Shown: positions 1-10,838 of the stretch, piece by piece
Layout of the letters: every line of letters begins with the position of its first letter
How positions within the stretch are numbered: the first letter of the stretch is position 1
UHGV virus genome: UHGV-0239954
Length of the DNA stretch: 12,704 bases
Reading direction: 5' to 3' (one strand)
Source of the DNA: a virus
Made by a program: the position numbers and the translations under genes
Notes under the pieces: model-generated
Told to the model about the DNA's origin: nothing
Seen by the model: only the letters and a program-made list of their open reading frames with translations
The model's database searches: none

Positions 1-1364
1 TCTTCCTTTCTTGATTCTTTATAAACAATTGCTGCTGATTTTGCATACCATGAGTCAAAAAACCATTCTGCTTCTGTTGATGGAATGAAGCTCTTTTCTC
101 TTTTTGCATGCGAATTTTGATCGGTATCGGTTTTAATATCATTGAACCAAAAATTTGCCGACTGATAATTATCCTTCTCGTATCTTTTTATACCATACGG
201 ACCTGCTAGTTTTTTAACTATTTTTAGAACTTGCTCTTTTCTTCTGGTGTTTATCTTTGAAAGATTTGTAGGATAAATAACATTAAGTAAAGCCGCATCG
301 GCTTCTCTGTAATGTTTATCTTTTTCCAGATAACCTGGGGATTCTCCCCCTAAATCAAGCTGTAACGTTATTCTTTCATAACCTTTATCTATGAGGTGGT
401 TCAACCTCGTTGTTGAAAGAGTTTCATCCAGTTCATTGACTTTAGCTTCGCGTAGTAAATCAGAGACAAAAACAGAGTCTTTCTTCGAGAGTAGGTTTGA
501 CAAACGTTCCAGTCCAGAGGTCACCAGTGCAACGGAAGATGTGTTTAATCGGGCATCTTCTTCCCATGCTCCGGAATCTTCCATAACATAGAAATTGGCT
601 TTATCCAGATAAGCAATCAGCAGCGCAACCGACTTTAATCGGTCACCTTTTTGCCAATCTTCAGCGTTAATAGTACCAGTGTTGATTGCTTGTATAAGGA
701 GATCAAGGTAAAGACCTAACGCATCATTTTGTTTATGGTTCCACAGCTGCGGCTTGCCTTCTTCCTGCACATCTGCCATCACGGGGGAGTTGCTGTCAAA
801 TCGGATATGCACAGCATTCATTTGCACGGGAACTCCATCCAGTCGTTTTGGGTTGCTAATGACGTCCTGCATCCGCTTAATCTGGTCGGGCGTAGACATA
901 TAATCCCACAGGGTGAGCAGAACCTTTTTTGCGGCTACACTATTTCCCTGATCTGATACTAATGCCATATAGCCCCATAAACTATCCCTCAACCAGACAG
1001 CATCATAGTGGGTTTGTGCCGCTGTTTTGTCATCTTCGAAAGTAGAAGCAAGAATAAACGTTCCCCAGGGTTTCTCCGTCAACGTTAACTTTCGTGTGTT
1101 TTCTGTTAATGTTAGCAATCCTTGAATTTCGTCTTTGGTATAGTGGCTCTTTATTTCATTTTGTAATTTGGCTGAGTGAATCAAAAGACGATAATTAGGA
1201 TACTTATCTGGATTTAACGATAAATAACTTTTATCTGTTGCTGCCCCCGTGGAATTAAGAATGTTAAATACAGATTCACTCGTCACTTCTGCCCCTGTCG
1301 CCTGGCATGTGCCGCACGAAAATATACCAGCGAGCAGAAGAGTTAATGCAGATTTCCCTTTCAT
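1..1364 (-). CDS. Secreted glycoside hydrolase family 15-like protein (glucoamylase/trehalase-like); 3' end truncated by window edge
   Basis: Uninterrupted minus-strand frame from ATG at 1364-1362 to position 1, translated by hand with no stop; absent from the ORF track because it has no stop in the window. N-terminus MKGKSALTLLLAGIFSCGTCQA resembles a signal or lipoprotein peptide. Motifs HYDAVWLRDS and DSGAWEED resemble the GH15 W-x-RDS and catalytic WEE motifs. Region is visibly AT-rich compared with the element to its right. An in-frame alternative ATG lies at 1376. Confidence 0.55.
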   Translation of the reverse strand, partial: MKGKSALTLLLAGIFSCGTCQATGAEVTSESVFNILNSTGAATDKSYLSLNPDKYPNYRLLIHSAKLQNEIKSHYTKDEIQGLLTLTENTRKLTLTEKPWGTFILASTFEDDKTAAQTHYDAVWLRDSLWGYMALVSDQGNSVAAKKVLLTLWDYMSTPDQIKRMQDVISNPKRLDGVPVQMNAVHIRFDSNSPVMADVQEEGKPQLWNHKQNDALGLYLDLLIQAINTGTINAEDWQKGDRLKSVALLIAYLDKANFYVMEDSGAWEEDARLNTSSVALVTSGLERLSNLLSKKDSVFVSDLLREAKVNELDETLSTTRLNHLIDKGYERITLQLDLGGESPGYLEKDKHYREADAALLNVIYPTNLSKINTRRKEQVLKIVKKLAGPYGIKRYEKDNYQSANFWFNDIKTDTDQNSHAKREKSFIPSTEAEWFFDSWYAKSAAIVYKESRKE

Positions 1365-1597
1365 AAAATATTCCATCAATCGTTTGTTAAAAGCGTAGAT
1401 AACCACTTATTTAACAACTTGAAAATAAGGTGTTTTACCTGGGTTGTTACAAAAGGATTGCATTGCGTAAACGCTTTTTATTTACAACAAAATGGGGAAG
1501 TATTACGGCGATTGCGAAAAGTCTGAAGCGATTGAATTAAGATAATATAGAAAATCAGATACAGCAAAAATGGCAGATTGATCAGGTGAAGATAAAT

Positions 1598-1625: not shown

Positions 1626-1713
1626 ATAGCTAACCCATTGAATTGTGAACCAAAATAAGTAATCGCGGTACTTATCCCGGTAGTTGGTAGCGGTAGATTA
1701 CAAGGTAATTACC

Positions 1714-2940
1714 ATGCCAATCAAGAAGACTTCTTATCTTTATGCAAACAAAGATGGGATATTCATCTTTCAAATCTTTATCCCGGTGTACATGCGCCAC
1801 TTATGGCACGGGCGGCGCTCACTCAAGAAATCGACAGGCACGCGGGACATCATGCAAGCTCGCATATTCCGTGACCAATACTTATTAGAGTTCCGAAAGC
1901 TCCAGCTCATGATGAAACCGGATAACCCTATAAACCGGATTCATTCTGCTATTTCAGATCTTCACTTACTGGCGGGAATATCCAGCGACATTACCGCGCC
2001 CGTAACTACTCCAGCAGAACGAGGGAAACCAGCGTCGCCAAAATTGACAGATGTCAGTAAAGAATATGCAGAGCAATACAAAGATCGGCGCTCTTATTCC
2101 ACATTGAGTAAATCCGCTCGCGCTGTATCAGCATTCACTAAATCAACTAAGCGCCCAACAATTACAATAAACGGAATCGGGCGGCGGCTCGTCTCTGACT
2201 TTCTGAAAGCGAACCAAGATAAGTTTTCCCGGCAGACGCTGCAAAACTGGTTAACTTGCTTAGGTACGCTGTACGACTTCGCCCGGCGTAAATATGACAA
2301 TATCGCCCCTGATAATCCCTTTCACGGCCACAATCTGGAAGCCCGTCAGACAAACGAAAGTTACCAGCCGTTTGAACCGCACCAGCTACAGACATTAACA
2401 AAAAAGGCAGGTGACGAAATAAGGGATGTAATAATAATCGGGCTGTATTCCGGGATGCGTCTTGATGAAATAGCCAGCATTAAACGGGATGAGGTTGTCA
2501 CCATCGACGGCGTGCGGTGTTTCTATGTCAGTAAATCAAAAACAAAGGCGGGTATAAGGCATGTCCCTGTACACTCGCTGTTATTTGACATTGTTGATAA
2601 ATACCTCGCGCAAAACAGCGGGGAGTACCTGCTCCCCCAATCCAACAAAATTAAACGCGCGGATGGTAAACGTGGGCCGTGGTATTCTCAGACATTTACC
2701 CGCTTACGTCGCCGGGTACTACCAACAGCCACAGAGCGCCAGTGTTTCCACTCCCTGCGTGGTCACTTCATCACCTGCTTAGACCGGGCAGGTGTACCAG
2801 AACAGCGCATAGGAGCTATTACCGGGCATACAGAGAAAAAGGCAAAGACGGAAGCATTTAAAACGTACAGCCAAGGGGCTGGGATGAAAGAACTATCTGA
2901 ATACGTAGAGCTGGTAAGTTATCCAGAACTTGAATCATAA
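1714..2940 (+). CDS. int: Tyrosine recombinase / phage-type integrase
   Basis: ORF 1684-2940 in the track begins with TTG; first ATG is at 1714, preceded by AAGG 8 nt upstream. The C-terminal half has tyrosine recombinase hallmarks: conserved Arg in GMRLDE, H-x-x-R in FHSLRGH, and C-terminal Tyr candidates in KTY/SEYVEL. Position beside a tRNA-derived att site fits. Confidence 0.88.
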   Translation: MPIKKTSYLYANKDGIFIFQIFIPVYMRHLWHGRRSLKKSTGTRDIMQARIFRDQYLLEFRKLQLMMKPDNPINRIHSAISDLHLLAGISSDITAPVTTPAERGKPASPKLTDVSKEYAEQYKDRRSYSTLSKSARAVSAFTKSTKRPTITINGIGRRLVSDFLKANQDKFSRQTLQNWLTCLGTLYDFARRKYDNIAPDNPFHGHNLEARQTNESYQPFEPHQLQTLTKKAGDEIRDVIIIGLYSGMRLDEIASIKRDEVVTIDGVRCFYVSKSKTKAGIRHVPVHSLLFDIVDKYLAQNSGEYLLPQSNKIKRADGKRGPWYSQTFTRLRRRVLPTATERQCFHSLRGHFITCLDRAGVPEQRIGAITGHTEKKAKTEAFKTYSQGAGMKELSEYVELVSYPELES

Positions 2941-2942
2941 TT

Positions 2943-3371
2943 TCAGGCAGGGTAAATAATCCCCAGCCCGCGATACTGGCGGCGGTATTCTCTGACCAGA
3001 GCATCCGCCGTCGCCCTCGGCAGCTTCGCCATATGCCCGGTACGATAGCCACCCTCGGCAGAATTCGCTGCACGATGTACAACAGCCCGCACGCGCCCGG
3101 TTCTGTGGTCGTGGTCGAGGGTCGTGCTGCTGAACGCAACAGCCCGCCCGGTAACGGCACACCGTCGATACTGATAATTCCACAGAAAGCAACGCACCGC
3201 AGCCACGTCAGCACGGCGCAACTCCAGTCGCCCTGAACCATTCAACAGGAGGCGATACACATCGTCGAATGCAGCAGCGTTTCTAACGCGCTCAGCCAGC
3301 GGCATATTGCCAAGGAACTCCAGATAATCCCGCATTGCTTTTCTTAAAAGTTGGTCTGTCCGTGTAACCAT
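2943..3371 (-). CDS. Recombination endonuclease VII-like nuclease with degenerate zinc-binding site
   Basis: ATG at 3371 with GGAGA 9 nt upstream. Segment CAVTGRAVAFSSTTLDHDHRTGRVRAVVHRAAN matches the EndoVII signature C-x-x-C...DHDH-x-TG-x-VRG-LLC-x-x-CN as I recall it, but three of the four zinc-ligand cysteines are replaced (T, H, A). The catalytic DHDH and Asn are retained. Its stop lies 2 nt from the integrase stop, convergent. Confidence 0.6.
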   Translation of the reverse strand: MVTRTDQLLRKAMRDYLEFLGNMPLAERVRNAAAFDDVYRLLLNGSGRLELRRADVAAVRCFLWNYQYRRCAVTGRAVAFSSTTLDHDHRTGRVRAVVHRAANSAEGGYRTGHMAKLPRATADALVREYRRQYRGLGIIYPA

Positions 3372-3643
3372 GATTCAAAGTCTCCATTGTCAGACACAGC
3401 CCGCTTGCAGGCTTCGTATTCTTCGCGCTGGCGTTGGCATACCAGAGCATAAAGCTCATCAGCCACCGCATTTACGCGCCTATCACTGATACCGTTGCGA
3501 CGCATCTGCCCCAGCAGCTTACGAAATTCAGCCTCAAGCTCAGGCTCTCCTGTATCCATTACCCACTGTTTCAAGTCAGCGAGTGCGCCAGTCATTGGCG
3601 GCGGCTCGATGTACCGCCACCTTAATTTAATCGTCAAAGCCAT
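3344..3643 (-). CDS. Hypothetical small protein (99 aa)
   Basis: ORF 3344-3649; the second ATG at 3643 has GAGGA at about 6-nt spacing, so it is the preferred start. Overlaps neighbours on both sides (operon packing). No recognisable motif. Confidence 0.5.
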   Translation of the reverse strand: MALTIKLRWRYIEPPPMTGALADLKQWVMDTGEPELEAEFRKLLGQMRRNGISDRRVNAVADELYALVCQRQREEYEACKRAVSDNGDFESWLHGQTNF

Positions 3644-4052
3644 AAGCATTCCTCTTTATATCGTTTGCTCTCGCTTCACTGGCTTGTTTAAGCGTCATTC
3701 CTTCGATAGCTATATCCAGCAGTTCCTTTTGCTTACCAGCCAATCGCAAGGCGCTGTCTCTCCAGCAAAGCAGAAAGAAGATTGTCAGCACCTGTTTACT
3801 CAATCCATCCAGAAGATCGCCAAGTCCTTGATCCAGCAGACAGGCACGCCATGCAGCAGCGTGCTGCGTCATAGCACCGACTATCGGGATAGGTGCGCCA
3901 AGCATCGTCGCAAGCTGACTCATAACACTATTAGCATCGCCCGGATGCAGCCGGGGAATAGTCATGCGGCCAGCCTGCGCCAACAGCTCGGCGTACCTCT
4001 GGCGACGTGGGTCATCACATGCCAGCGGTTTAATTGGCTTTTCATCAGCCAT
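3627..4052 (-). CDS. Hypothetical protein (141 aa)
   Basis: ATG at 4052 preceded by GGAGG 9 nt upstream; 17-nt overlap with the downstream gene. No confident family assignment. Confidence 0.55.
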   Translation of the reverse strand: MADEKPIKPLACDDPRRQRYAELLAQAGRMTIPRLHPGDANSVMSQLATMLGAPIPIVGAMTQHAAAWRACLLDQGLGDLLDGLSKQVLTIFFLLCWRDSALRLAGKQKELLDIAIEGMTLKQASEARANDIKRNAYGFDD

Positions 4053-4070
4053 ATATGGAACCTCCGAGGA

Positions 4071-4598
4071 TTAGGCAGCCTGCAACAAATCGGCTGGCGT
4101 TGAGGGATGGTATCTGGCTTTAGCTTTTAGATAGGCAGCACGCGCCGCCGCTTCGGTTGTGAACAAGCCAAGGTGATGGCGTACACCATTAACGCGAATG
4201 TAAGCCTCCCATTTACCAGAACAAGAATGACGGCTATATCCCTTCGCTTTGCGGTAGTTGTGCTGATTCTCCTGCGGTGTAACAGCGCGGAGGTTGCCCG
4301 GTCGATTATCGGCACGTACAGCGTTAATGTGGTCGATTTGCAGACCGTCAGGGATACCACCATTAGCAATGATGAAGGCCACGCGATGCGCATAAATCGA
4401 GTGCGTCCTGCCGTCGATGCGGACAGACACGCGCCGATACCCGGCGCTGTCCGTTGCGGTGTCAGCCAGTTCCCCGGCCTCAGCATAAATCCGCTTGTTG
4501 ATTCCAATTCGGTCTACTGCATGGAACAGGCGGCCAGTCTCCGCATCGTATCGAAATAAAGAGCGTAGCAGCTCAGGGGCGTAAGCATCATTAACCAT
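4071..4598 (-). CDS. HNH endonuclease with AP2 DNA-binding domain (phage homing-endonuclease-like)
   Basis: ATG at 4598 with GGAGGGG upstream. N-terminal YDAETGRLFH, HNH core IDHINAVRADNRPGNLRAVTPQENQHN and C-terminal AP2-like SGKWEAYIRVNGVRHHLGLFTTEAAARAAY match the HNH_3 + AP2 architecture common in phages. Confidence 0.85.
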   Translation of the reverse strand: MVNDAYAPELLRSLFRYDAETGRLFHAVDRIGINKRIYAEAGELADTATDSAGYRRVSVRIDGRTHSIYAHRVAFIIANGGIPDGLQIDHINAVRADNRPGNLRAVTPQENQHNYRKAKGYSRHSCSGKWEAYIRVNGVRHHLGLFTTEAAARAAYLKAKARYHPSTPADLLQAA

Positions 4599-4614
4599 GA
4601 CTCAGCCCCTCCAG

Positions 4615-5610
4615 TTACACAGCTTGTCGGAAATTGATAACGCAGTCAGGGCGGCGCAGTCCAACATTGAACAGGCGATATGAGTCCATCACCATCGTCA
4701 TTTCGCGCTCATCATCCCACTGGCGATTGATAACGCTCTGCGCTTCGACTGTCACAAGTACAGACGCAGGCCGGAACAGCGTCGCCCGCGTCAGCGCTTC
4801 CTCTGAGGTAACGTCATAATCAGCGCCCAGTTCATGCCCGGTAATAGCTTCCTGCGGGTAACTGTTCAGCTCAATGACTCGTACCCCAGCGACATAGCCA
4901 ACTCGACGCCATGCGTAATCGTTGCCACTATCCCGGCTGTAACGGACGTTCATCAGCTTCTTATGTTCCATCAGGATGCTGAACCAAGCCGGGTCGATAA
5001 GCAGTACCAGCTCGGCCACCGGAATATCTTTCTCAGTGAGAAAGCGATTAGCAGCCGCTTTTACGACGTGAGCCAATTCGTTTGCGGCGTCCTCTTCGCT
5101 CCCCGCTGTCAGGTCGAGCGATACAACGTTATCCGTTAGTGGGTTAAACGTTGGTTGCAGTGTCGGCGGCGGTACAAAGTCAGTCGCTTTGATTAGCTGG
5201 ATGGTGTGCGCTTCGTCGTAGAATTTAGCGTGAGCAGTACCCATATTGCGGCTCAGCTCTGCGCGAAAGGTGGGCGCTGTCCAGTCGTCCTGATAGTCAA
5301 TCGGAATGCGGATATAGCTCAGCGTATCCACAGAGATAATCAGCTTATCCGACTTAACAGCGGTAGGCTCCAGCGATTGCCCTGCGGTTCTGCCCTTCAC
5401 CTCCAGATCACCACTCAGGCGATCAATGCGGTATTGGTTGCTGGCTTTCAGCGGCCTGTATGTAGACAGCCCCTCTGCCAGAAATACGGATTTGGACTCT
5501 AAACGGGTCTGGACATCCCGGTCATAAGCCTCGATGTGAATATCATTGTCGGATTCCACCCCGCCATAATGTGGGCGAAACAGATCGGGACTGTACGAAG
5601 TATCAGTCAT
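4615..5610 (-). CDS. Major capsid protein-like (T7 gp10-like, HK97-fold family), 331 aa
   Basis: ORF 4615-5655; preferred start is ATG at 5610 with TAGGAG 8 nt upstream (the two upstream ATGs lack a well-spaced SD). Segments KLIISVDTLSYIRIPIDYQD, LTEKDIPVAELVLLIDPAWFSILME and RPASVLVTVEAQSVINRQWDDE align in order and spacing with T7 gp10A segments KVITIDGLLTADVLIYDIED, LTKNYVPAADRVFYCDPDSYSAILAA and HRSAVGTVKLRDLALERARRANFQ as I recall them. Length is similar to gp10A. Confidence 0.6.
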   Translation of the reverse strand: MTDTSYSPDLFRPHYGGVESDNDIHIEAYDRDVQTRLESKSVFLAEGLSTYRPLKASNQYRIDRLSGDLEVKGRTAGQSLEPTAVKSDKLIISVDTLSYIRIPIDYQDDWTAPTFRAELSRNMGTAHAKFYDEAHTIQLIKATDFVPPPTLQPTFNPLTDNVVSLDLTAGSEEDAANELAHVVKAAANRFLTEKDIPVAELVLLIDPAWFSILMEHKKLMNVRYSRDSGNDYAWRRVGYVAGVRVIELNSYPQEAITGHELGADYDVTSEEALTRATLFRPASVLVTVEAQSVINRQWDDEREMTMVMDSYRLFNVGLRRPDCVINFRQAV

Positions 5611-5669
5611 AAACAAAACTCCTACGTAGGTTGATGAAGCCCGCGCCATCGTCATGGCACAGACGTGCG

Positions 5670-5694
5670 GAATCCTCCCGCCGAGGCAGGATTC
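5670..5694 (-). promoter_or_regulatory. Stable stem-loop in the leader of the capsid gene (possible RNA processing or stabilising element)
   Basis: GAATCCTGCC...GGGAGGATTC inverted repeat (9 bp with one mismatch, 5-nt loop), about 60 nt upstream of the capsid start inside the only sizeable intergenic gap (5611-5808) of the operon. No U-tract follows, so it is not a typical intrinsic terminator. Confidence 0.35.
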
Positions 5695-5808
5695 AGAACG
5701 GTATCGATTAAAGGGATGAGGTGCCCCGAAATGGGCGTTTTGAGGCCAGAGCTGGCGCGGTTCTCAGAGGTTAGTGCGCGTGAAGTAAGGCGAACGTATT
5801 ACCTTGCA

Positions 5809-6222
5809 TTAGTGCGCACTCATACGCGCCATGTTCAACACCTTCCGCACAGAGGTTTCAGACACGCCAACCTTACTTGCAATGTAACGATTCTTCTGGC
5901 CTTTTGCAGAGCGCTCGATAATGTCAGCGCGTACTGCCTCAGTGATCACCTTGCGGGGTCTGGCTCGATTCTTCTCGTGCCGTTCACGTTCGCGCATCCG
6001 CTCGGCCATCTTCGGCGGCAGCACAGGGGAAAGCCCACGGCTAACGCCAGAGGTGCGGGTGTCGGACGTGGCAGCTCGGGCAACGATATAAACCACTTCG
6101 TCTGGATTGAAAACGTGCTGCACACGCTCAGGGTAAATGTGGTCGCATCTACCCAGCGGCAAGGCGAAATCCGGGCGCACGTCAGCGACACGCTCCACGG
6201 CATGGAAATTACAGGTACTCAT
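5809..6222 (-). CDS. Small DNA-binding protein with C-terminal Hin/resolvase-type HTH; possible small-terminase-like or regulatory protein
   Basis: ATG at 6222 with GAGG 6 nt upstream. C-terminus RARPRKVITEAVRADIIERSAKGQKNRYIASKVGVSETSVRKVL fits the GRPRK...IA...GVS..TV.R.L pattern of Hin/resolvase HTH domains. No resolvase catalytic domain is present. Confidence 0.6.
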   Translation of the reverse strand: MSTCNFHAVERVADVRPDFALPLGRCDHIYPERVQHVFNPDEVVYIVARAATSDTRTSGVSRGLSPVLPPKMAERMRERERHEKNRARPRKVITEAVRADIIERSAKGQKNRYIASKVGVSETSVRKVLNMARMSAH

Positions 6223-6361
6223 TAGGAACCTCGGTTAATTAAAAACAGGCTTTTAGATGCCGCGCAGAATGCAGCTTGCGGGGACTCATGCGCTTAGATT
6301 GGTGTGGTAGTACCGGGTTGGAGCGCACTCAGTCTTGCAGGGCGCATTCCACCGTTGGGCG

Positions 6362-7048
6362 TTAGCGACCAGCACGTTTGCCAGCGGAGCGCTGCGCAAC
6401 CAGAGCGCGGTATTGAATGTCGTACTGGCGATGGCCGGGGCCATACCCTGATTGCTGCGCCCACTGCGAAAGCTGATCATACGCTGCAATAAACTCAGCA
6501 TGAGACATACCAACAGGTTGCGAGGCAGGCTGGCCGTATGGGTTCCCCTGTGATGGGACATAACCAGTCGCAGTGCCTGCGGCCATACGCTCTTGCAGAT
6601 AATGAACCGCCCGCTGCATCTGCGCAGGGTCGCCAGACATAACCATCCGTTCAAGGGTTGATTGCGTCCCGGCGTCGAGCGTGCCAGCGTACTGCAACAT
6701 CGCGTCAACTGTACCCTGCCCTAGCTGGCTTTCGACAGACTGGTGAAACTGCCCCATCAGCCCATGAAGTTCAGGAGTCAACTCAACAGTAGTGCCATCC
6801 TGTAATTGCAGTGTGTCGCCCACTTGTGCAGCAACATCAATCTGCTGGTCTTGCTGGTTGGCAAAGTTACTTTCGCTCCAGCTTTGATTAATGTTCGCTG
6901 GCTGCGTTTTCAGGAAATCAGCATCAGGTGTTGTCTGGTCGAATCGGCTAGCGCCGTTGTCAGCACCTACAGGTGCGGCCATGTACGGCGATTGCTGCGG
7001 CGCAGTATCAGCGCCCGAAAGATATGGATTAACATTCTGGTCAGCCAT
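6362..7048 (-). CDS. Acidic Gln-rich low-complexity protein; candidate capsid scaffolding protein
   Basis: ATG at 7048 with AGAGG 7 nt upstream; start overlaps the upstream stop (TAATG). Composition is Q/D/E/A/G-rich with no hydrophobic core pattern, and it sits upstream of the capsid gene, analogous to T7 gp9 upstream of gp10. Function is inference only. Confidence 0.6.
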   Translation of the reverse strand: MADQNVNPYLSGADTAPQQSPYMAAPVGADNGASRFDQTTPDADFLKTQPANINQSWSESNFANQQDQQIDVAAQVGDTLQLQDGTTVELTPELHGLMGQFHQSVESQLGQGTVDAMLQYAGTLDAGTQSTLERMVMSGDPAQMQRAVHYLQERMAAGTATGYVPSQGNPYGQPASQPVGMSHAEFIAAYDQLSQWAQQSGYGPGHRQYDIQYRALVAQRSAGKRAGR

Positions 7049-7050
7049 GA

Positions 7051-7290
7051 TTATGCAACCTCTTGTGATGTAACTCGGCGATGTGCCAGTTCAAGTAAAA
7101 GCATGTGTGCGTGTACGCAGCGTGGGGGAATCATCTTCTGACCGTGGTACGCCTTGCAGAGATCTTGTCTGTCAATTTGATACACACGAGCCAGATCGAT
7201 TTGGCGTAGATTCAAGGCATCAGCAATGAATTTCAGTTGTTGCCCGCACTCCACCGCGCGGCGCGGCTCCATTAAAATGATGGTGCTCAT
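7051..7290 (-). CDS. Small HTH DNA-binding protein (Cro/XRE-like), 79 aa
   Basis: ORF 7051-7332; preferred start is ATG at 7290 with GAGGA 8 nt upstream. Segment QQLKFIADALNLRQIDLARVYQIDRQDLCKAYHG has helix-turn-helix character. Confidence 0.55.
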   Translation of the reverse strand: MSTIILMEPRRAVECGQQLKFIADALNLRQIDLARVYQIDRQDLCKAYHGQKMIPPRCVHAHMLLLELAHRRVTSQEVA

Positions 7291-7304
7291 GAAATAATCC
7301 TCAG

Positions 7305-7538
7305 TTAGATAAGGCCATGACGACGCAACCAACGTCGCTCGCCAACGGAGCCACGCGGTCGCTGCCTTGGGTTCTGGTTTGGTGCTTGGCCGGGATCAGT
7401 TCGTCCTTCCCCGGACAGGTTCTGTGTCAGCACATCCCAGCCGCGTGATTCAAACGGGGCGTATCCCTCGCGCTGTTCGTCAAGGTTCACATAGAGATCA
7501 GGGTTAACGGCAGGGTGCAGCGGTTCGTTCTCTGCCAT
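7305..7538 (-). CDS. Hypothetical small protein (77 aa)
   Basis: ATG at 7538 overlaps the upstream stop (TGATG); the track start at 7541 is a GTG. Pro/Gly/Arg-rich, no recognisable motif. Confidence 0.4.
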   Translation of the reverse strand: MAENEPLHPAVNPDLYVNLDEQREGYAPFESRGWDVLTQNLSGEGRTDPGQAPNQNPRQRPRGSVGERRWLRRHGLI

Positions 7539-8098
7539 CACTTAGCCCCGAATCGCGTGTTAACATCTTCCAAAATATCGGGGTAGCTCCAGCGGTTACG
7601 CATCAGGCGCAGGACATGAGCAACAGCCTCAACAGAGATCCCAAGCTCTCCAGCGATCTCGGTTTGTTTCCAGCCGAAGCGCTCCAGCTTGTGCATCTGA
7701 TCGAGGTCGGCGCTCAACAGGCGGCGCATCGTCTGAGGTTTCTCAGGCTTCGCTTTAACAGCTTTCGGCATCGGGTGGGTGTGGGCGTTGCTAAAGCGGG
7801 AATGTGCGATAGCCAGCACAGTCTCAGGGCGAATCAGCATATCGCGGGCAATCATAAACTCTGTATCGCGGTGCAGCTTGCCGGGCTTATAGCGGCTGCG
7901 GATGGCGTTGTACTCCGCCAGAGTGATATCAGCATCGTCTTTCCAATTTTCGGCCAAGTCATCGACATAGACGCCACGGATTACAGCATCAATATCGGTC
8001 AGGGTATGACCTGTCTCCGCTGCAATCTCTTCATTGTTCTTTAGGTGCTTATGAGCCAGCGTGTTAATGCGCTGGATATCGGTAATGCTCAAAGTCAT
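7538..8098 (-). CDS. DNA-binding protein with C-terminal sigma-70 region 4 / LuxR-like HTH (regulator or small-terminase-like)
   Basis: ATG at 8098 in an ATGA overlap with the upstream gene. C-terminal RRLLSADLDQMHKLERFGWKQTEIAGELGISVEAVAHVLRL resembles sigma region 4 / GerE-type HTH. Confidence 0.6.
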   Translation of the reverse strand: MTLSITDIQRINTLAHKHLKNNEEIAAETGHTLTDIDAVIRGVYVDDLAENWKDDADITLAEYNAIRSRYKPGKLHRDTEFMIARDMLIRPETVLAIAHSRFSNAHTHPMPKAVKAKPEKPQTMRRLLSADLDQMHKLERFGWKQTEIAGELGISVEAVAHVLRLMRNRWSYPDILEDVNTRFGAK

Positions 8099-8948: not shown

Positions 8949-10838
8949 TCAGAGGAAGCGGGAGATGTAACCCCAATTGCAGTTTTCAGGGCGGTACAAC
9001 GCTGCCAGCTCATCAGGTACACCGGACGGCACCGGGGCAGAGTCGGCGTCATAGGTGATGGGGTCGCCATACAGAGCCAACGATGACCACAGCAGAAAAG
9101 CACGGGCAGGTTGACCGTCACGCCCGGCACGTCCGATCATCTGAACTAAATCGGGCAGGTCTTCGGGAACATAAGTGACAATTACGTTACGCACGCCAGA
9201 GATATCAGCCCCCAGCCCGAAGGCTTTAGTAGCAATCAGAACCGCGCCGGGCGTGCTGGCAAACCACGCAGCGTTAGCGTGACGCTGGTCGCGGCTCAGT
9301 CGCTCAACGTCAGAATGGTAAGGCCGGGCGCGGTCTCCCAGTTCGTTGAGATACGCATACAGCATCTTGATACTGTCCACCATCACCAGCGTCTTCTCAT
9401 CCAGCGGGAGGGCATCGACCAGACCAACGGCAGCCCGGCGCGTAGTTGCGCACTGCTGAACAGGAATAAGCTGGATGTTTTCACGGGCAGCACTGGCGCG
9501 GTAGGTGAGGAACTCGCCACGACAGCCAAGCTCTTTCATCAAGCCAGACTCATCACCTTTTCGCAGGGTCGCAGTAAACGCGCACCGCTGAGCATCCGGG
9601 AAGGCATTTTTCAGGGTGTGTTTCATTGCAGGGAAAGCGTCCCGGAACTCCCATTCATCAACGGTATGAACCTCGTCAATGATAAATCTGTCCACACCAG
9701 CGGCCATCAGCGCAGCCAGCACCTGATTGCCCGGCACCAGATGCTCAGGTGAAACTACGGCAACGTGGAAAGCGCCAGCAGCCAACCCCGCAAGCTGTTG
9801 CGCATTGCGTCGCCTCGGCAGCTTGTCGCCAAAGGCAACAGCGTGAACGCCAGTTTCTAGCAACTGCTGTAACACCTGCTGCTTGATGGTGTTTGTAGGC
9901 ACAACAATAACGGTCAGACCGTCATCAGAATCAGATTCAAATTGCAGGGCATAGGTGAATGCAGCCGTCTTTCCGTACCCGGTTGGCAGTACGGCCAATA
10001 CATCGCGGTCACGGGCAAATACGGCGGCAGCTACGTCCTGCTGGCCGGGTCTCCAGTCTCTGCCATCTAGCGGTGGTAACGGTACGAATGCCGGGCGGTC
10101 GCATTGCTCCAGCTCGCGGAACCTGTACGGCGCGGTAACCAGCGGCGGGATGGACGGCGGCAGGCCAGCACCCCCAACGTCACAATGCAGATTCAGCGTA
10201 TTGAATTTATCATCCGTGGGTTTCAGCTCACCGCACCACAACTGACGGAAAGCCGGGCAGTCACCCAGTCGCGTAAAGTCAGCATGGCGCATAGCTTCCA
10301 GCTTGCTCATGCCGCGACTGATACGACGCACGATCTTCTCATCGCAAATCAGAAACTCACGGCAGGCTTTGAGGAAGGCATTCTGCCCGGTTGTCGCTTC
10401 CGGGATGGAGTGCTCGCGCGGTTTAAGCGCAGCGTCATCAACGCGAACGCCGGGGAAATCTGGCGGCAGCGGCTCGGCGTACCGGGCAGGCTTTTTGTTT
10501 AGCCACATCTCCAGCTCAGCGCGGCGGCAGTGGATTGCATCGCCCGGCTGGATAATCTGGCGCAACCCGGCATCAGCGCGGCGGGAATGTCGCTTGCGGC
10601 CAATTCCATTCGCCTCTTTCCATTCACGGAACGACATAACTGAACCATCTGCATTGTAGAAATACTGCCCGGAAACGGTGTTAAGCGCTGCCTTCACTGG
10701 TCGCTGTTTAACAGGGCATAACTTGGAATGAGGTATAACGATCTTATCCGCAACCAGTTGCTGAGCATCCGCAGGCTCGGTGTTCAGCGGTTCGGCGTCA
10801 GCGGCCAGCGTAAGCAAGCGGTTTAAATTGGTTGGCAT
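8949..10838 (-). CDS. RecQ-family SF2 DNA helicase with ~275-aa N-terminal extension; putative replication protein of the element
   Basis: ATG at 10838 with GGAG upstream. Ordered helicase motifs match RecQ: RPGQQ...LPTGYGKTAAF (motifs 0/I), TVIVVPTNTIKQQV (Ia), FIIDEVH (II), FTATL (III), IATKAFGLGADISGVRNVIVTYVPEDLPDLVQMIGRAGRDG (V/VI). No RQC/HRDC region follows. The N-terminal part has no clear match apart from an excisionase-like AIHCRRAELEMWL segment. Confidence 0.88.
   Translation of the reverse strand: MPTNLNRLLTLAADAEPLNTEPADAQQLVADKIVIPHSKLCPVKQRPVKAALNTVSGQYFYNADGSVMSFREWKEANGIGRKRHSRRADAGLRQIIQPGDAIHCRRAELEMWLNKKPARYAEPLPPDFPGVRVDDAALKPREHSIPEATTGQNAFLKACREFLICDEKIVRRISRGMSKLEAMRHADFTRLGDCPAFRQLWCGELKPTDDKFNTLNLHCDVGGAGLPPSIPPLVTAPYRFRELEQCDRPAFVPLPPLDGRDWRPGQQDVAAAVFARDRDVLAVLPTGYGKTAAFTYALQFESDSDDGLTVIVVPTNTIKQQVLQQLLETGVHAVAFGDKLPRRRNAQQLAGLAAGAFHVAVVSPEHLVPGNQVLAALMAAGVDRFIIDEVHTVDEWEFRDAFPAMKHTLKNAFPDAQRCAFTATLRKGDESGLMKELGCRGEFLTYRASAARENIQLIPVQQCATTRRAAVGLVDALPLDEKTLVMVDSIKMLYAYLNELGDRARPYHSDVERLSRDQRHANAAWFASTPGAVLIATKAFGLGADISGVRNVIVTYVPEDLPDLVQMIGRAGRDGQPARAFLLWSSLALYGDPITYDADSAPVPSGVPDELAALYRPENCNWGYISRFL

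What the first reader, a model, noticed from the sequence alone, without database searches (positions are those of the whole stretch)
2943..4598. Nuclease-rich cargo block next to the integrase: EndoVII-like protein missing its zinc-ligand cysteines, two unknown proteins, and an HNH-AP2 endonuclease
In the EndoVII-like protein three of the four expected zinc-ligand cysteines are substituted (CAVTG and VVHRAAN instead of C-x-x-C and LC-x-x-CN), while the catalytic DHDH and Asn are kept. That suggests a structurally divergent but possibly still active nuclease. It sits with an HNH-AP2 endonuclease and two uncharacterised small proteins in the int-proximal position where satellites and prophages often carry accessory or anti-phage cargo. 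It could be a junction-resolving or helper-interference module.
Basis: partly seen in the sequence, partly recalled or inferred. Interest (0 to 1): 0.55.

Follow-up and report, generated by a model that had tools for sequence, protein, structure and literature searches.

The report
Zinc-less EndoVII in satellite core operon
The four genes are real and the DNA-junction nuclease does lack its usual zinc site, but they are a fixed core part of a small, apparently undescribed virus-parasite element of gut bacteria rather than swappable anti-virus cargo, and zinc-less versions of this nuclease also occur in ordinary lytic phages.

Summary
Observation confirmed; interpretation only partly supported. 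Window 2943-4598 (minus strand) holds four tightly packed or overlapping genes: HNH_3/AP2 endonuclease, two family-specific unknowns (141 and 101 aa) and an EndoVII-family protein.

In the EndoVII-like protein the T4 zinc ligands C23/C26/C58/C61 correspond to C71/T74/H99/A102. The catalytic D-H-H-R-N set is intact. Its nearest phage relatives mostly use C-C-H-C, so two ligands are really lost. The same loss pattern recurs in about 25 of 130 distant cluster representatives. It also occurs in lytic Autographiviridae (Vibrio phage BD1, Pseudomonas phage Achelous), in the normal resolvase slot. The gene is under purifying selection (dN/dS 0.22). The AlphaFold model (pLDDT 96) superposes on T4 EndoVII.

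The block is not variable cargo. In all 13 related elements from at least five genera the order capsid-HNH-141-101-EndoVII is invariant, while the integrase swaps. The variable slot lies between EndoVII and int. It carries type II R-M or AbiTii elsewhere and is empty here.

The element (about 10 kb, 59 of 5426 complete E. coli genomes) carries Autographiviridae-type capsid and scaffold genes but no portal, tail or terminase. It is probably a satellite of such phages, and the block is the tail of its late operon. No description was found in the searchable literature.

The parts
2943..3371 (-). EndoVII-family (DHHRN) nuclease, 142 aa. The structural zinc site is reduced to Cys71 + His99 (T74 and A102 replace two Cys). 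It has an extra N-terminal helical region of about 45 aa.
3344..3649 (-). Family-specific small protein (101 aa ORF; RefSeq start gives 99 aa). Unknown function. It overlaps both neighbouring genes, which suggests translational coupling.
   Evidence: No Pfam, PHROG, PADLOC or NCBIfam hit. No phage tblastn match. All 60 homologues found lie at 63% identity or more; the named ones are all Enterobacteriaceae. 40 invariant columns. dN/dS 0.27.
3627..4052 (-). Family-specific 141-aa protein, predicted all-helical, with a variable acidic C-terminal tail. Unknown function.
   Evidence: No family hit. No phage match. Homologues only in this element family. AF2 model has low confidence, pLDDT 62. No fold match in BFVD. 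No similarity to the Lidtsur small terminase. dN/dS 0.16.
4071..4598 (-). HNH_3 endonuclease with a C-terminal AP2-like DNA-binding region. It is of homing-endonuclease type but has a fixed position in this element family.
   Evidence: HNH_3 at 2.2e-17, AP2 below its cut-off. PHROG 99 at 1e-50. PADLOC 'HEase' models. Phage relatives are free-standing HNH genes scattered in Autographiviridae genomes. Present in 13 of 13 elements. dN/dS 0.21.
4615..5655 (-). Context: major capsid protein of Autographiviridae type. It lies immediately upstream in the same gene string (16-nt gap to the HNH gene).
   Evidence: PHROG 267 at 7e-70. 54-56% identity to capsids of Bonnellvirus and related coliphages; 761 phage records matched.
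6362..7048 (-). Context: short scaffolding-like protein (228 aa, against 411 aa in phage Lidtsur). Similarity is confined to the C-terminal part.
   Evidence: PHROG 1018 at 5e-6, matching profile positions 168-279 of 280. Only a weak pairwise match to the Lidtsur scaffold C-terminus.
1684..2940 (+). Context: tyrosine integrase, convergent with the block. The cargo slot between it and the EndoVII gene is empty in this element.
   Evidence: Pfam Phage_integrase, PHROG 1. The integrase is exchanged among related elements. The slot is filled with R-M, AbiTii or unknowns elsewhere.

Best explanation
The four genes are the distal end of the conserved late (capsid/DNA-processing) gene string of an integrative element of about 10 kb. 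The element family is found in Enterobacteriaceae.

**The element.** It carries Autographiviridae-type capsid, scaffold, EndoVII and HNH genes but no portal, tail or terminase. It is most likely a satellite of lytic Autographiviridae such as Bonnellvirus-like coliphages (inferred).

**The EndoVII-like protein.** It belongs to a recurrent zinc-less subclass of the podoviral EndoVII resolvases.
- It keeps the whole catalytic D-H-H-R-N set and the beta-beta-alpha-metal core (shown).
- It has replaced the Cys4/Cys3His zinc knuckle with a Cys/Thr/His/Ala packing (shown at sequence level; the absence of metal is inferred).
- Its most likely job is the one EndoVII has in phages that lack T7 endonuclease I. 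That job is cutting branched replication and recombination intermediates, here so that satellite concatemers can be packaged into satellite-built capsids (inferred).

**The HNH-AP2 protein.** It is a domesticated homing-type endonuclease, probably acquired with the phage-derived genes. It may make sequence-specific cuts in satellite or helper DNA (inferred).

**The two small proteins.** They are element-specific partners, co-translated with the nucleases. Their role cannot yet be named; regulators or specificity factors for the nucleases or for packaging are the leading guesses.
For: **Gene structure and identity.**

**Fixed synteny.** The block is in the same order in 13 elements from at least five genera, despite integrase exchange and variable neighbours.

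**Selection.** All four genes are under purifying selection at levels like the other core genes: 0.16-0.27 against 0.11-0.21.

**Operon-like layout.** Gaps are 16-18 nt or the genes overlap. There are no sigma-70-like promoter matches in 2700-7600 (0 found, 3.4 expected).

**Shared phage origin.**
- The capsid is 54-56% identical to Autographiviridae capsids.
- EndoVII and capsid hits have a near-identical host distribution. Klebsiella, Acinetobacter and Pseudomonas phages top both lists.
- HNH relatives are in the same phage family.

**Missing virion genes.** No portal, terminase or tail gene was recognised in any ORF of the element.

**Catalytic residues and fold.**

**Zinc-less EndoVII in working phages.** It occupies the canonical slot after the exonuclease gene in the lytic phages BD1 and Achelous.

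**Published background.** Podoviruses lacking endonuclease I are proposed to use EndoVII as their resolvase, and the DHHRN residues are essential (PMC6083498).
Against: - No experiment links the element to any helper. No att sites were found within the window, and no phage promoter or pac-like sequence shared with phage Lidtsur was found.
- In T4, C23S and C61S mutants are inactive and do not bind DNA (PMC6083498). The C61 equivalent here is Ala, so activity depends on an unproven structural compensation.
- A helper Autographiviridae phage already brings its own EndoVII (Lidtsur has a C-C-C-C one). The need for a satellite copy is therefore unexplained.
- EndoVII-motif proteins can also be homing or restriction endonucleases (PMC6083498), so junction specificity is not guaranteed.
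- The two unknown proteins gave no functional clue.
Confidence: 0.55

Rival explanations
1. Helper-interference module. The two nucleases act mainly on the helper phage's DNA. EndoVII would cut its branched replication intermediates. HNH-AP2 would cut a specific helper site, for example near the helper capsid locus. This would shut the helper down and free its packaging machinery for the satellite. The two small proteins would serve as inhibitors or immunity factors that protect satellite and host DNA.
For: - Satellite-encoded nucleases that attack the helper are known. The abstract of PMC9410903, listed, describes a PLE nicking nuclease effector.
- HNH-AP2 relatives are site-specific homing endonucleases of exactly the candidate helper family.
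- The HNH sits next to a capsid gene that is only about 56% identical to the phage copy. That would allow self/non-self discrimination.
- The small genes overlap the nuclease genes, as immunity genes often do.
Against: - There is no target-site evidence.
- The small proteins are not markedly acidic or DNA-mimic-like (pI 5.4 and 6.7).
- No match to any PADLOC defence model beyond 'homing endonuclease'.
- The EndoVII clade is that of phage resolvases.
Confidence: 0.2
2. One reading: the block is exchangeable int-proximal accessory or anti-phage cargo of a satellite or prophage.
For: It lies next to the integrase. The same end of related elements does carry defence genes.
Against: - The block is invariant in order and content in 13 of 13 elements, while the integrase and the adjacent slot vary.
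- It is contiguous with, and co-oriented with, the capsid gene.
- It has no defence-model hits.
- The true hotspot is the EndoVII-int gap, which is empty here.
Confidence: 0.05
3. The EndoVII-like protein is a pseudo-enzyme or a purely DNA-binding or structural factor. Losing the zinc knuckle would have abolished cleavage, and the HNH is a selfish homing-endonuclease passenger that contributes nothing to the element.
For: - T4 C61S and the C26S/C58S double mutant are inactive and fail to bind DNA (PMC6083498).
- HNH-AP2 genes are classic selfish passengers in phages.
- The HNH is the most divergent gene of the block, at 57-87% identity.
Against: - All catalytic residues are invariant across a family with dS of about 0.5 and dN/dS of 0.22. 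A pseudo-enzyme would be expected to lose them.
- Zinc-less variants are the EndoVII homologue found in the resolvase slot of the lytic phages BD1 and Achelous.
- The HNH is fixed at one position in 13 of 13 elements with dN/dS 0.21, unlike sporadic homing genes.
Confidence: 0.15

Closest known systems
Phage T4 endonuclease VII (gp49; PDB 1en7/1e7d/2qnc) and the podoviral EndoVII resolvases (Pfam PF02945; 'DHHRN' family of PMC6083498)
   Same: - Same family by Pfam and PHROG.
- Same catalytic D, H, H, R, N and E positions.
- Beta-beta-alpha-metal core superposes at 1.4-1.5 A over 61 residues.
- The C-terminal conserved Y...P motif is shared with phage homologues.
   Different: - Zinc ligands 2 and 4 are replaced by Thr and Ala.
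- There is an extra N-terminal helical region of about 45 residues not seen in the phage proteins. Distant hits align only from about residue 50.
- It is encoded on an integrative element at the end of a capsid operon. In phages the gene sits in the DNA-metabolism cluster next to an exonuclease.
Zinc-less EndoVII of lytic Autographiviridae (Vibrio phage BD1, C-T-S-V; Pseudomonas phages Achelous/Alpheus, C-T-P-V)
   Same: Same paired loss: ligand 2 becomes Thr and ligand 4 becomes a small hydrophobic residue. The catalytic residues are kept.
   Different: - Only about 35% identity over the core.
- These keep neither His nor Cys at ligand 3.
- They sit in the canonical exonuclease-EndoVII-phosphoesterase cluster of a complete phage.
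Free-standing HNH(HNH_3)-AP2 homing endonucleases of phiKMV-like and other Autographiviridae
   Same: Domain make-up, with 40-48% identity.
   Different: - In phages they are sporadic, multi-copy and in varied positions.
- Here there is a single copy fixed after the capsid gene in every element.
Capsid-encoding satellites (SaPIbov5 Ccm capsid homologue, PMC8569155; capsid-forming PICIs, bioRxiv 10.1101/2022.09.08.507074)
   Same: A small integrative element that encodes its own homologue of the helper-type major capsid protein and a scaffold-like protein.
   Different: - The capsid and scaffold are of Autographiviridae (lytic podovirus) type.
- No portal, protease, connector, TerS or AlpA was recognised.
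- It has a RecQ/DpdF-like helicase and two nucleases instead.
Satellite-helper nuclease warfare in Vibrio cholerae (PLE nicking nuclease, PMC9410903)
   Same: A satellite carries a nuclease as a core gene.
   Different: The protein family is unrelated. Here no target or inhibitory activity is known.

Membership tests
Endonuclease VII / DHHRN family (Pfam PF02945) | Profile match above the curated threshold | tested here: met
   PF02945 at 26.9 bits against a cut-off of 23.6, residues 63-109. PHROG 423 'endonuclease VII' at 1.4e-13.
Endonuclease VII / DHHRN family (Pfam PF02945) | Catalytic residues D40, H41, H43, R54, N62 (T4 numbering) | tested here: met
   D86, H87, H89, R95 and N103 are present. 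H87, R95 and N103 are invariant and D86 and H89 are at least 90% conserved in an 83-sequence alignment. Essentiality is taken from PMC6083498.
Endonuclease VII / DHHRN family (Pfam PF02945) | Structural zinc site CX2-4C ... CX2C (or C-C-H-C) | tested here: not met
   The four positions are C71, T74, H99 and A102, conserved family-wide. About 25 of 130 distant representatives show the same kind of loss.
Endonuclease VII / DHHRN family (Pfam PF02945) | Beta-beta-alpha-metal core fold as in T4 EndoVII | tested here: met
Endonuclease VII / DHHRN family (Pfam PF02945) | Dimeric, structure-selective cleavage of four-way junctions | not testable with these tools
   Needs biochemistry.
HNH-AP2 homing endonucleases | HNH_3 nuclease domain plus AP2 DNA-binding domain | tested here: inconclusive
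   HNH_3 at 62.9 bits against 24.8, so met. AP2 at 19.6 bits is below its 33.3 cut-off. Full-length match to PHROG 99 at 1e-50.
HNH-AP2 homing endonucleases | Sporadic presence/absence among otherwise similar genomes (mobility of the gene itself) | tested here: not met
   Present at the same position in 13 of 13 related elements. Phage homologues are sporadic and multi-copy.
Packaging-associated HNH proteins of cos phages/satellites (Kala et al. 2014, as cited in PMC9618062) | Small HNH protein encoded next to terminase genes | tested here: not met
   No terminase was recognised anywhere in the element. The domain is HNH_3 + AP2-like, and its neighbours are the capsid gene and an unknown.
Int-proximal variable defence/accessory cargo of satellites and prophages | Gene content differs between otherwise homologous elements | tested here: not met
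   The block is invariant. Variability is confined to the adjacent EndoVII-int gap: type II R-M (two kinds), AbiTii, unknowns.
Int-proximal variable defence/accessory cargo of satellites and prophages | Match to known defence-system models | tested here: not met
   PADLOC gives nothing for EndoVII, the 101-aa or the 141-aa protein. The HNH matches only 'homing endonuclease' models.
Known satellite families (P4-like, PICI, cfPICI, PLE) | Family marker genes (AlpA, Pri-Rep, TerS, Sid/Psu/Delta, portal/protease/connector) | tested here: not met
   None was recognised by Pfam, PHROG or NCBIfam in the element's ORFs. Only integrase, capsid, scaffold-like, HTH, RecQ/DpdF-like helicase and two nucleases were recognised. 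SatelliteFinder itself was not run.

The most novel reading that the evidence does not exclude
The window holds a member of an undescribed family of capsid- and scaffold-encoding satellites that parasitise strictly lytic Autographiviridae in Enterobacteriaceae. EPEC E2348/69 carries a member of the same family. The EndoVII/101/141/HNH block would be its dedicated DNA-maturation and helper-sabotage module. In that reading:
- a zinc-free resolvase clears satellite concatemers;
- a domesticated homing endonuclease cuts the helper genome;
- the two orphan proteins control the nucleases' specificity.
Probability: 0.25. Interest if true: 0.75.

Novelty: new variant of a known kind. Interest (0 to 1): 0.42.

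Why it matters
**For the nuclease.** The structural zinc site of EndoVII-type resolvases appears dispensable. It has been lost with the same paired substitution (ligand 2 to Thr/Ser, ligand 4 to a hydrophobic residue) in satellites and in working lytic phages. That makes these proteins a natural test of what the zinc knuckle does.

**For mobile-element biology.** The block helps define a compact element that borrowed capsid, scaffold, resolvase and an HNH gene from T7-supergroup phages. Satellites of lytic podoviruses in E. coli and its relatives were not found in the literature I could search. A well-studied strain (E2348/69) and available coliphages (the Bonnellvirus group) make the idea directly testable.

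**For annotation practice.**
- The real defence hotspot of these elements is the EndoVII-int gap.
- The element's helicase is picked up as 'DpdF' by a defence-system model.

Tried and rejected
- **Function of the 141-aa protein.** The AF2 model had only pLDDT 62. Foldseek against BFVD gave nothing below E = 2. The afdb50 library was unavailable. hhalign against the Lidtsur small terminase gave probability 0.1%. No function could be assigned.
- **Phage matches for the unknowns.** tblastn of both unknown proteins against 50,697 phage records gave no match even at E = 1.
- **Helper-derived cis signals.** Repeat families in phage Lidtsur and short-word BLAST of the element's intergenic regions against Lidtsur gave only chance-level matches. 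The only DNA similarity is the capsid gene (67% over 683 nt).
- **att sites.** No convincing long-range direct repeat was found within the window. No tRNA and no Rfam family were found.
- **PDB by sequence.** The single protein found nothing relevant. The family profile reached T4 EndoVII only at E = 1.3. That alignment is useful for residue correspondence, not as proof of homology. Homology rests on Pfam, PHROG and the fold.
- **Literature.** Six searches for a described satellite family of this kind found none. Papers on VEIMEs, PICMIs, cfPICIs and YprA-island elements describe different elements. Subscription-only papers are not covered.
- **'Small proteins as acidic nuclease inhibitors'.** Their pI values of 5.4 and 6.7 do not particularly support this.
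Full report
**1. Where the window comes from and what is at the coordinates**

The window is identical to E. coli strain 5735, chromosome NZ_CP154887.1, around 3.636-3.646 Mb. Between about 1684 and 11500 lies a block with G+C of 52-60%, flanked by DNA of 35-40% G+C.

The block starts with a tyrosine integrase on the plus strand (1684-2940). A single string of minus-strand genes follows. Read in the direction of transcription, the string is:
- a 204-aa unknown;
- a 629-aa RecQ/DEAD helicase;
- five small proteins, one with an HTH;
- a scaffold-like protein;
- a 137-aa protein;
- a major capsid protein (4615-5655);
- the four genes of the finding.

The four genes of the finding are:

| Gene | Coordinates | Size |
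|---|---|---|
| HNH | 4071-4598 | 175 aa |
| Unknown | 3627-4052 | 141 aa |
| Unknown | 3344-3649 | 101 aa |
| EndoVII-like | 2943-3371 | 142 aa |

Gaps between them are 16 and 18 nt, and the last three genes overlap. The EndoVII stop codon begins two bases after the integrase stop.

**2.

The 142-aa protein passes Pfam Endonuclease_7 and PHROG 423.

A profile of 17 family members aligns to T4 EndoVII in the PDB. The E-value is weak, so I use this alignment only for residue correspondence. An hmmalign of 135 sequences agrees with it.

| T4 EndoVII | This protein | Role |
|---|---|---|
| C23 | C71 | zinc ligand 1 |
| C26 | T74 | zinc ligand 2 |
| C58 | H99 | zinc ligand 3 |
| C61 | A102 | zinc ligand 4 |
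| D40 / H41 / H43 | D86 / H87 / H89 | catalytic |
| R54 | R95 | conserved, near the metal ion |
| N62 | N103 | catalytic |
| E65 | E106 | conserved |

The substitutions are conserved across the family, so this is not a lesion in one copy.

Two corrections of detail follow.
- Among 130 cluster representatives found in 1.84 billion proteins, the commonest ligand pattern is C-C-H-C (68), not C-C-C-C (27). Klebsiella phage VLC6 and Xanthomonas phage N3, the best phage matches, are C-C-H-C. The His at ligand 3 is therefore ancestral for this clade, and only two ligands have been lost.
- Most family members read DHCH rather than DHDH. That position is non-essential in T4 (PMC6083498).

**3. Zinc-less EndoVII is a recurrent, working variant**

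About 25 of the 130 representatives lack at least two ligands. They show a characteristic pairing: ligand 2 becomes Thr or Ser, and ligand 4 becomes Ala, Val, Ile or Trp.

The same pattern is found in complete lytic Autographiviridae:
- Vibrio phage BD1 is C-T-S-V.
- Pseudomonas phage Achelous is C-T-P-V.

In both phages the gene sits directly after the exonuclease gene, where canonical EndoVII sits in relatives. Related Vectrevirus phages have C-C-C-C.

PMC6083498 reports several relevant facts:
- T4 C23S and C61S are inactive.
- Single C26S or C58S mutants remain active.
- D40, H41, H43, R54 and N62 define the family.
- Podoviruses lacking T7 endonuclease I probably use EndoVII as their resolvase.

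The loss of the C61 equivalent would be fatal in T4. It must therefore be compensated structurally in this subclass.

Several results argue for a folded, functional nuclease:
- The AlphaFold2 model built on 83 sequences is very confident (pLDDT 96.2, pTM 0.90).
- dN/dS across 13 elements is 0.22, at a dS of about 0.5.

**4. The block is core, not cargo**

The block occurs in 59 of 5426 complete E. coli genomes, always on the chromosome. One of these is EPEC E2348/69.

I anchored a search on the capsid gene rather than on the block. This recovered eight further elements in Enterobacter, Kluyvera, Kosakonia and Trabulsiella. With the three E. coli loci, the E2348/69 locus and a Logan contig, that gives 13 elements.

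All 13 have capsid-HNH-141-101-EndoVII in the same order and contiguous. Identities are:

| Gene | Identity range |
|---|---|
| Capsid | 93-97% |
| The two unknowns | 76-91% |
| EndoVII | 70-79% |
| HNH | 57-87% |
| Integrase | about 90% or about 38% (exchanged) |

The distance between the EndoVII gene and the integrase varies from 0 to about 2.4 kb. That gap holds the following:

| Locus | Content of the EndoVII-int gap |
|---|---|
| L010 | C5 methyltransferase + Eco47II-type restriction enzyme |
| L013, L014 | a different type II methyltransferase/restriction pair |
| L009, L011 | AbiTii |
| L002, L012, L015, L017, L018 | unknown proteins |
| This window | empty |

But the hotspot lies one step closer to the integrase than the block. 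All four block genes evolve under purifying selection comparable to the other core genes.

**5. What the element is**

The capsid protein is 54-56% identical to the major capsid proteins of Bonnellvirus and related Autographiviridae. These phages infect Escherichia, Enterobacter, Kosakonia, Cronobacter and Pantoea. The element is found in several of the same genera.

The scaffold-like protein matches only the C-terminal part of a phage scaffold family and is half the phage length. The best phage relatives of the EndoVII and the HNH also lie in Autographiviridae.

Nothing resembling a portal, tail or terminase was recognised. No marker gene of P4-like, PICI, cfPICI or PLE satellites was recognised either.

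The simplest reading is a satellite that builds, or redirects, capsids with its own coat and scaffold proteins and takes portal, tail and terminase from an Autographiviridae helper. This is an inference; nothing here shows mobilisation. I found no description of such a family in the searchable literature.

**6. Mechanism proposed for the block**

*Shown:*
- the genes are co-oriented with the capsid gene and packed against it;
- the block is invariant;
- the EndoVII is of the phage-resolvase clade with a complete catalytic set.

*Inferred:*
- the block is expressed late with the capsid genes;
- the EndoVII removes branches from replicated satellite DNA so that it can be packaged. This is the role of gp49 in T4 and of the podoviral EndoVII.

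The HNH-AP2 protein is of homing-endonuclease type. Its fixed position and purifying selection suggest domestication. It could cut satellite DNA for maturation, or cut helper DNA.

The two orphan proteins could not be assigned. Their overlap with the nuclease genes suggests they work with them.

The main rival is that the nucleases are aimed at the helper (interference). The two roles are not exclusive.

**7. Verdict**

The sequence observation is correct and well above chance, being family-wide and conserved. The 'possibly still active divergent nuclease' reading is supported. The 'accessory or anti-phage cargo' reading is not.

The zinc-less EndoVII is a new variant of a known enzyme kind, but it is not unique to this element. 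The more interesting object is the element family itself, of which this block is a fixed part.

Noticed in passing
Related loci: L010 12738-14770; L013 12717-14868; L014 12726-14877; L009 12734-13657; L011 12734-13636; L012 12687-13292; L015 12710-13354; L017 11167-11811; L002 4235-4815; L018 9955-10857. In the window: the 2-nt gap at 2941-2942.: The gap between the EndoVII gene and the integrase is a cargo hotspot in this element family. It holds two different type II R-M systems (one Eco47II-like), AbiTii, and several unknown proteins of 124-300 aa that are candidate new defence genes. It is empty in the window's element.
   Followed up: partly
window 8949-10838 (-): The element's RecQ/DEAD helicase matches PADLOC model PDLC02858 'DpdF' at 1053 bits over the whole 504-position profile, although no other Dpd gene is present. 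That PADLOC sub-model appears to represent this satellite helicase family, so defence annotators may mislabel these elements as Dpd fragments.
   Followed up: no
window 4615-5655 and 6362-7048 (-): An integrated element carries an Autographiviridae-type major capsid gene (54-56% identity to Bonnellvirus capsids) and a half-length scaffold-like gene, but no portal, tail or terminase. It looks like an undescribed satellite family of lytic podoviruses. It is present in 59 of 5426 complete E. coli genomes, including EPEC E2348/69 (NC_011601, about 4.850-4.862 Mb).
   Followed up: partly
window 1-1463 (-), and L001 14541-15164 (beyond the window's right end): A second, larger integrase (WP_023352893.1) plus a DUF4145 gene lie directly left of the element. 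A serine recombinase lies 1-2 kb beyond the helicase end in every locus examined where that flank was inspected (L001, L002, L003, L017, L018). Neighbours elsewhere include SIR2, TIR, type I R-M and McrB genes. The elements therefore sit in defence-island or integration hotspots, and the serine recombinase may belong to the element.
   Followed up: no
window 5809-6222 (-): The gene between the scaffold and capsid genes is a second variable slot. Here it encodes a 137-aa basic protein with a weak LuxR/NarL-type HTH match. It is missing or replaced by unrelated ORFs in L002, L012-L015, and differs in size in L003 and L008.
   Followed up: no
window 2700-7600: There are no sigma-70-like promoter matches on either strand (0 found, 3.4 expected from shuffles). 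This is compatible with one long late transcript, or with transcription by a non-host (phage) RNA polymerase. No shared promoter motif with phage Lidtsur was found.
   Followed up: partly
window 3107-3109 (codon for D88 of the EndoVII-like protein): The second Asp of the 'DHDH' motif is Cys ('DHCH') in most family members and in many distant EndoVII representatives. The window's copy and a few others have Asp.
   Followed up: no
P0106, P0107, P0108 (representative search): Three full-length relatives at below 50% identity keep the N-terminal extension and have other zinc-less patterns (C-S-S-W, C-T-S-A, C-S-D-W). This hints at more distant sister families of the element. Their genomic context could not be looked up.
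   Followed up: no
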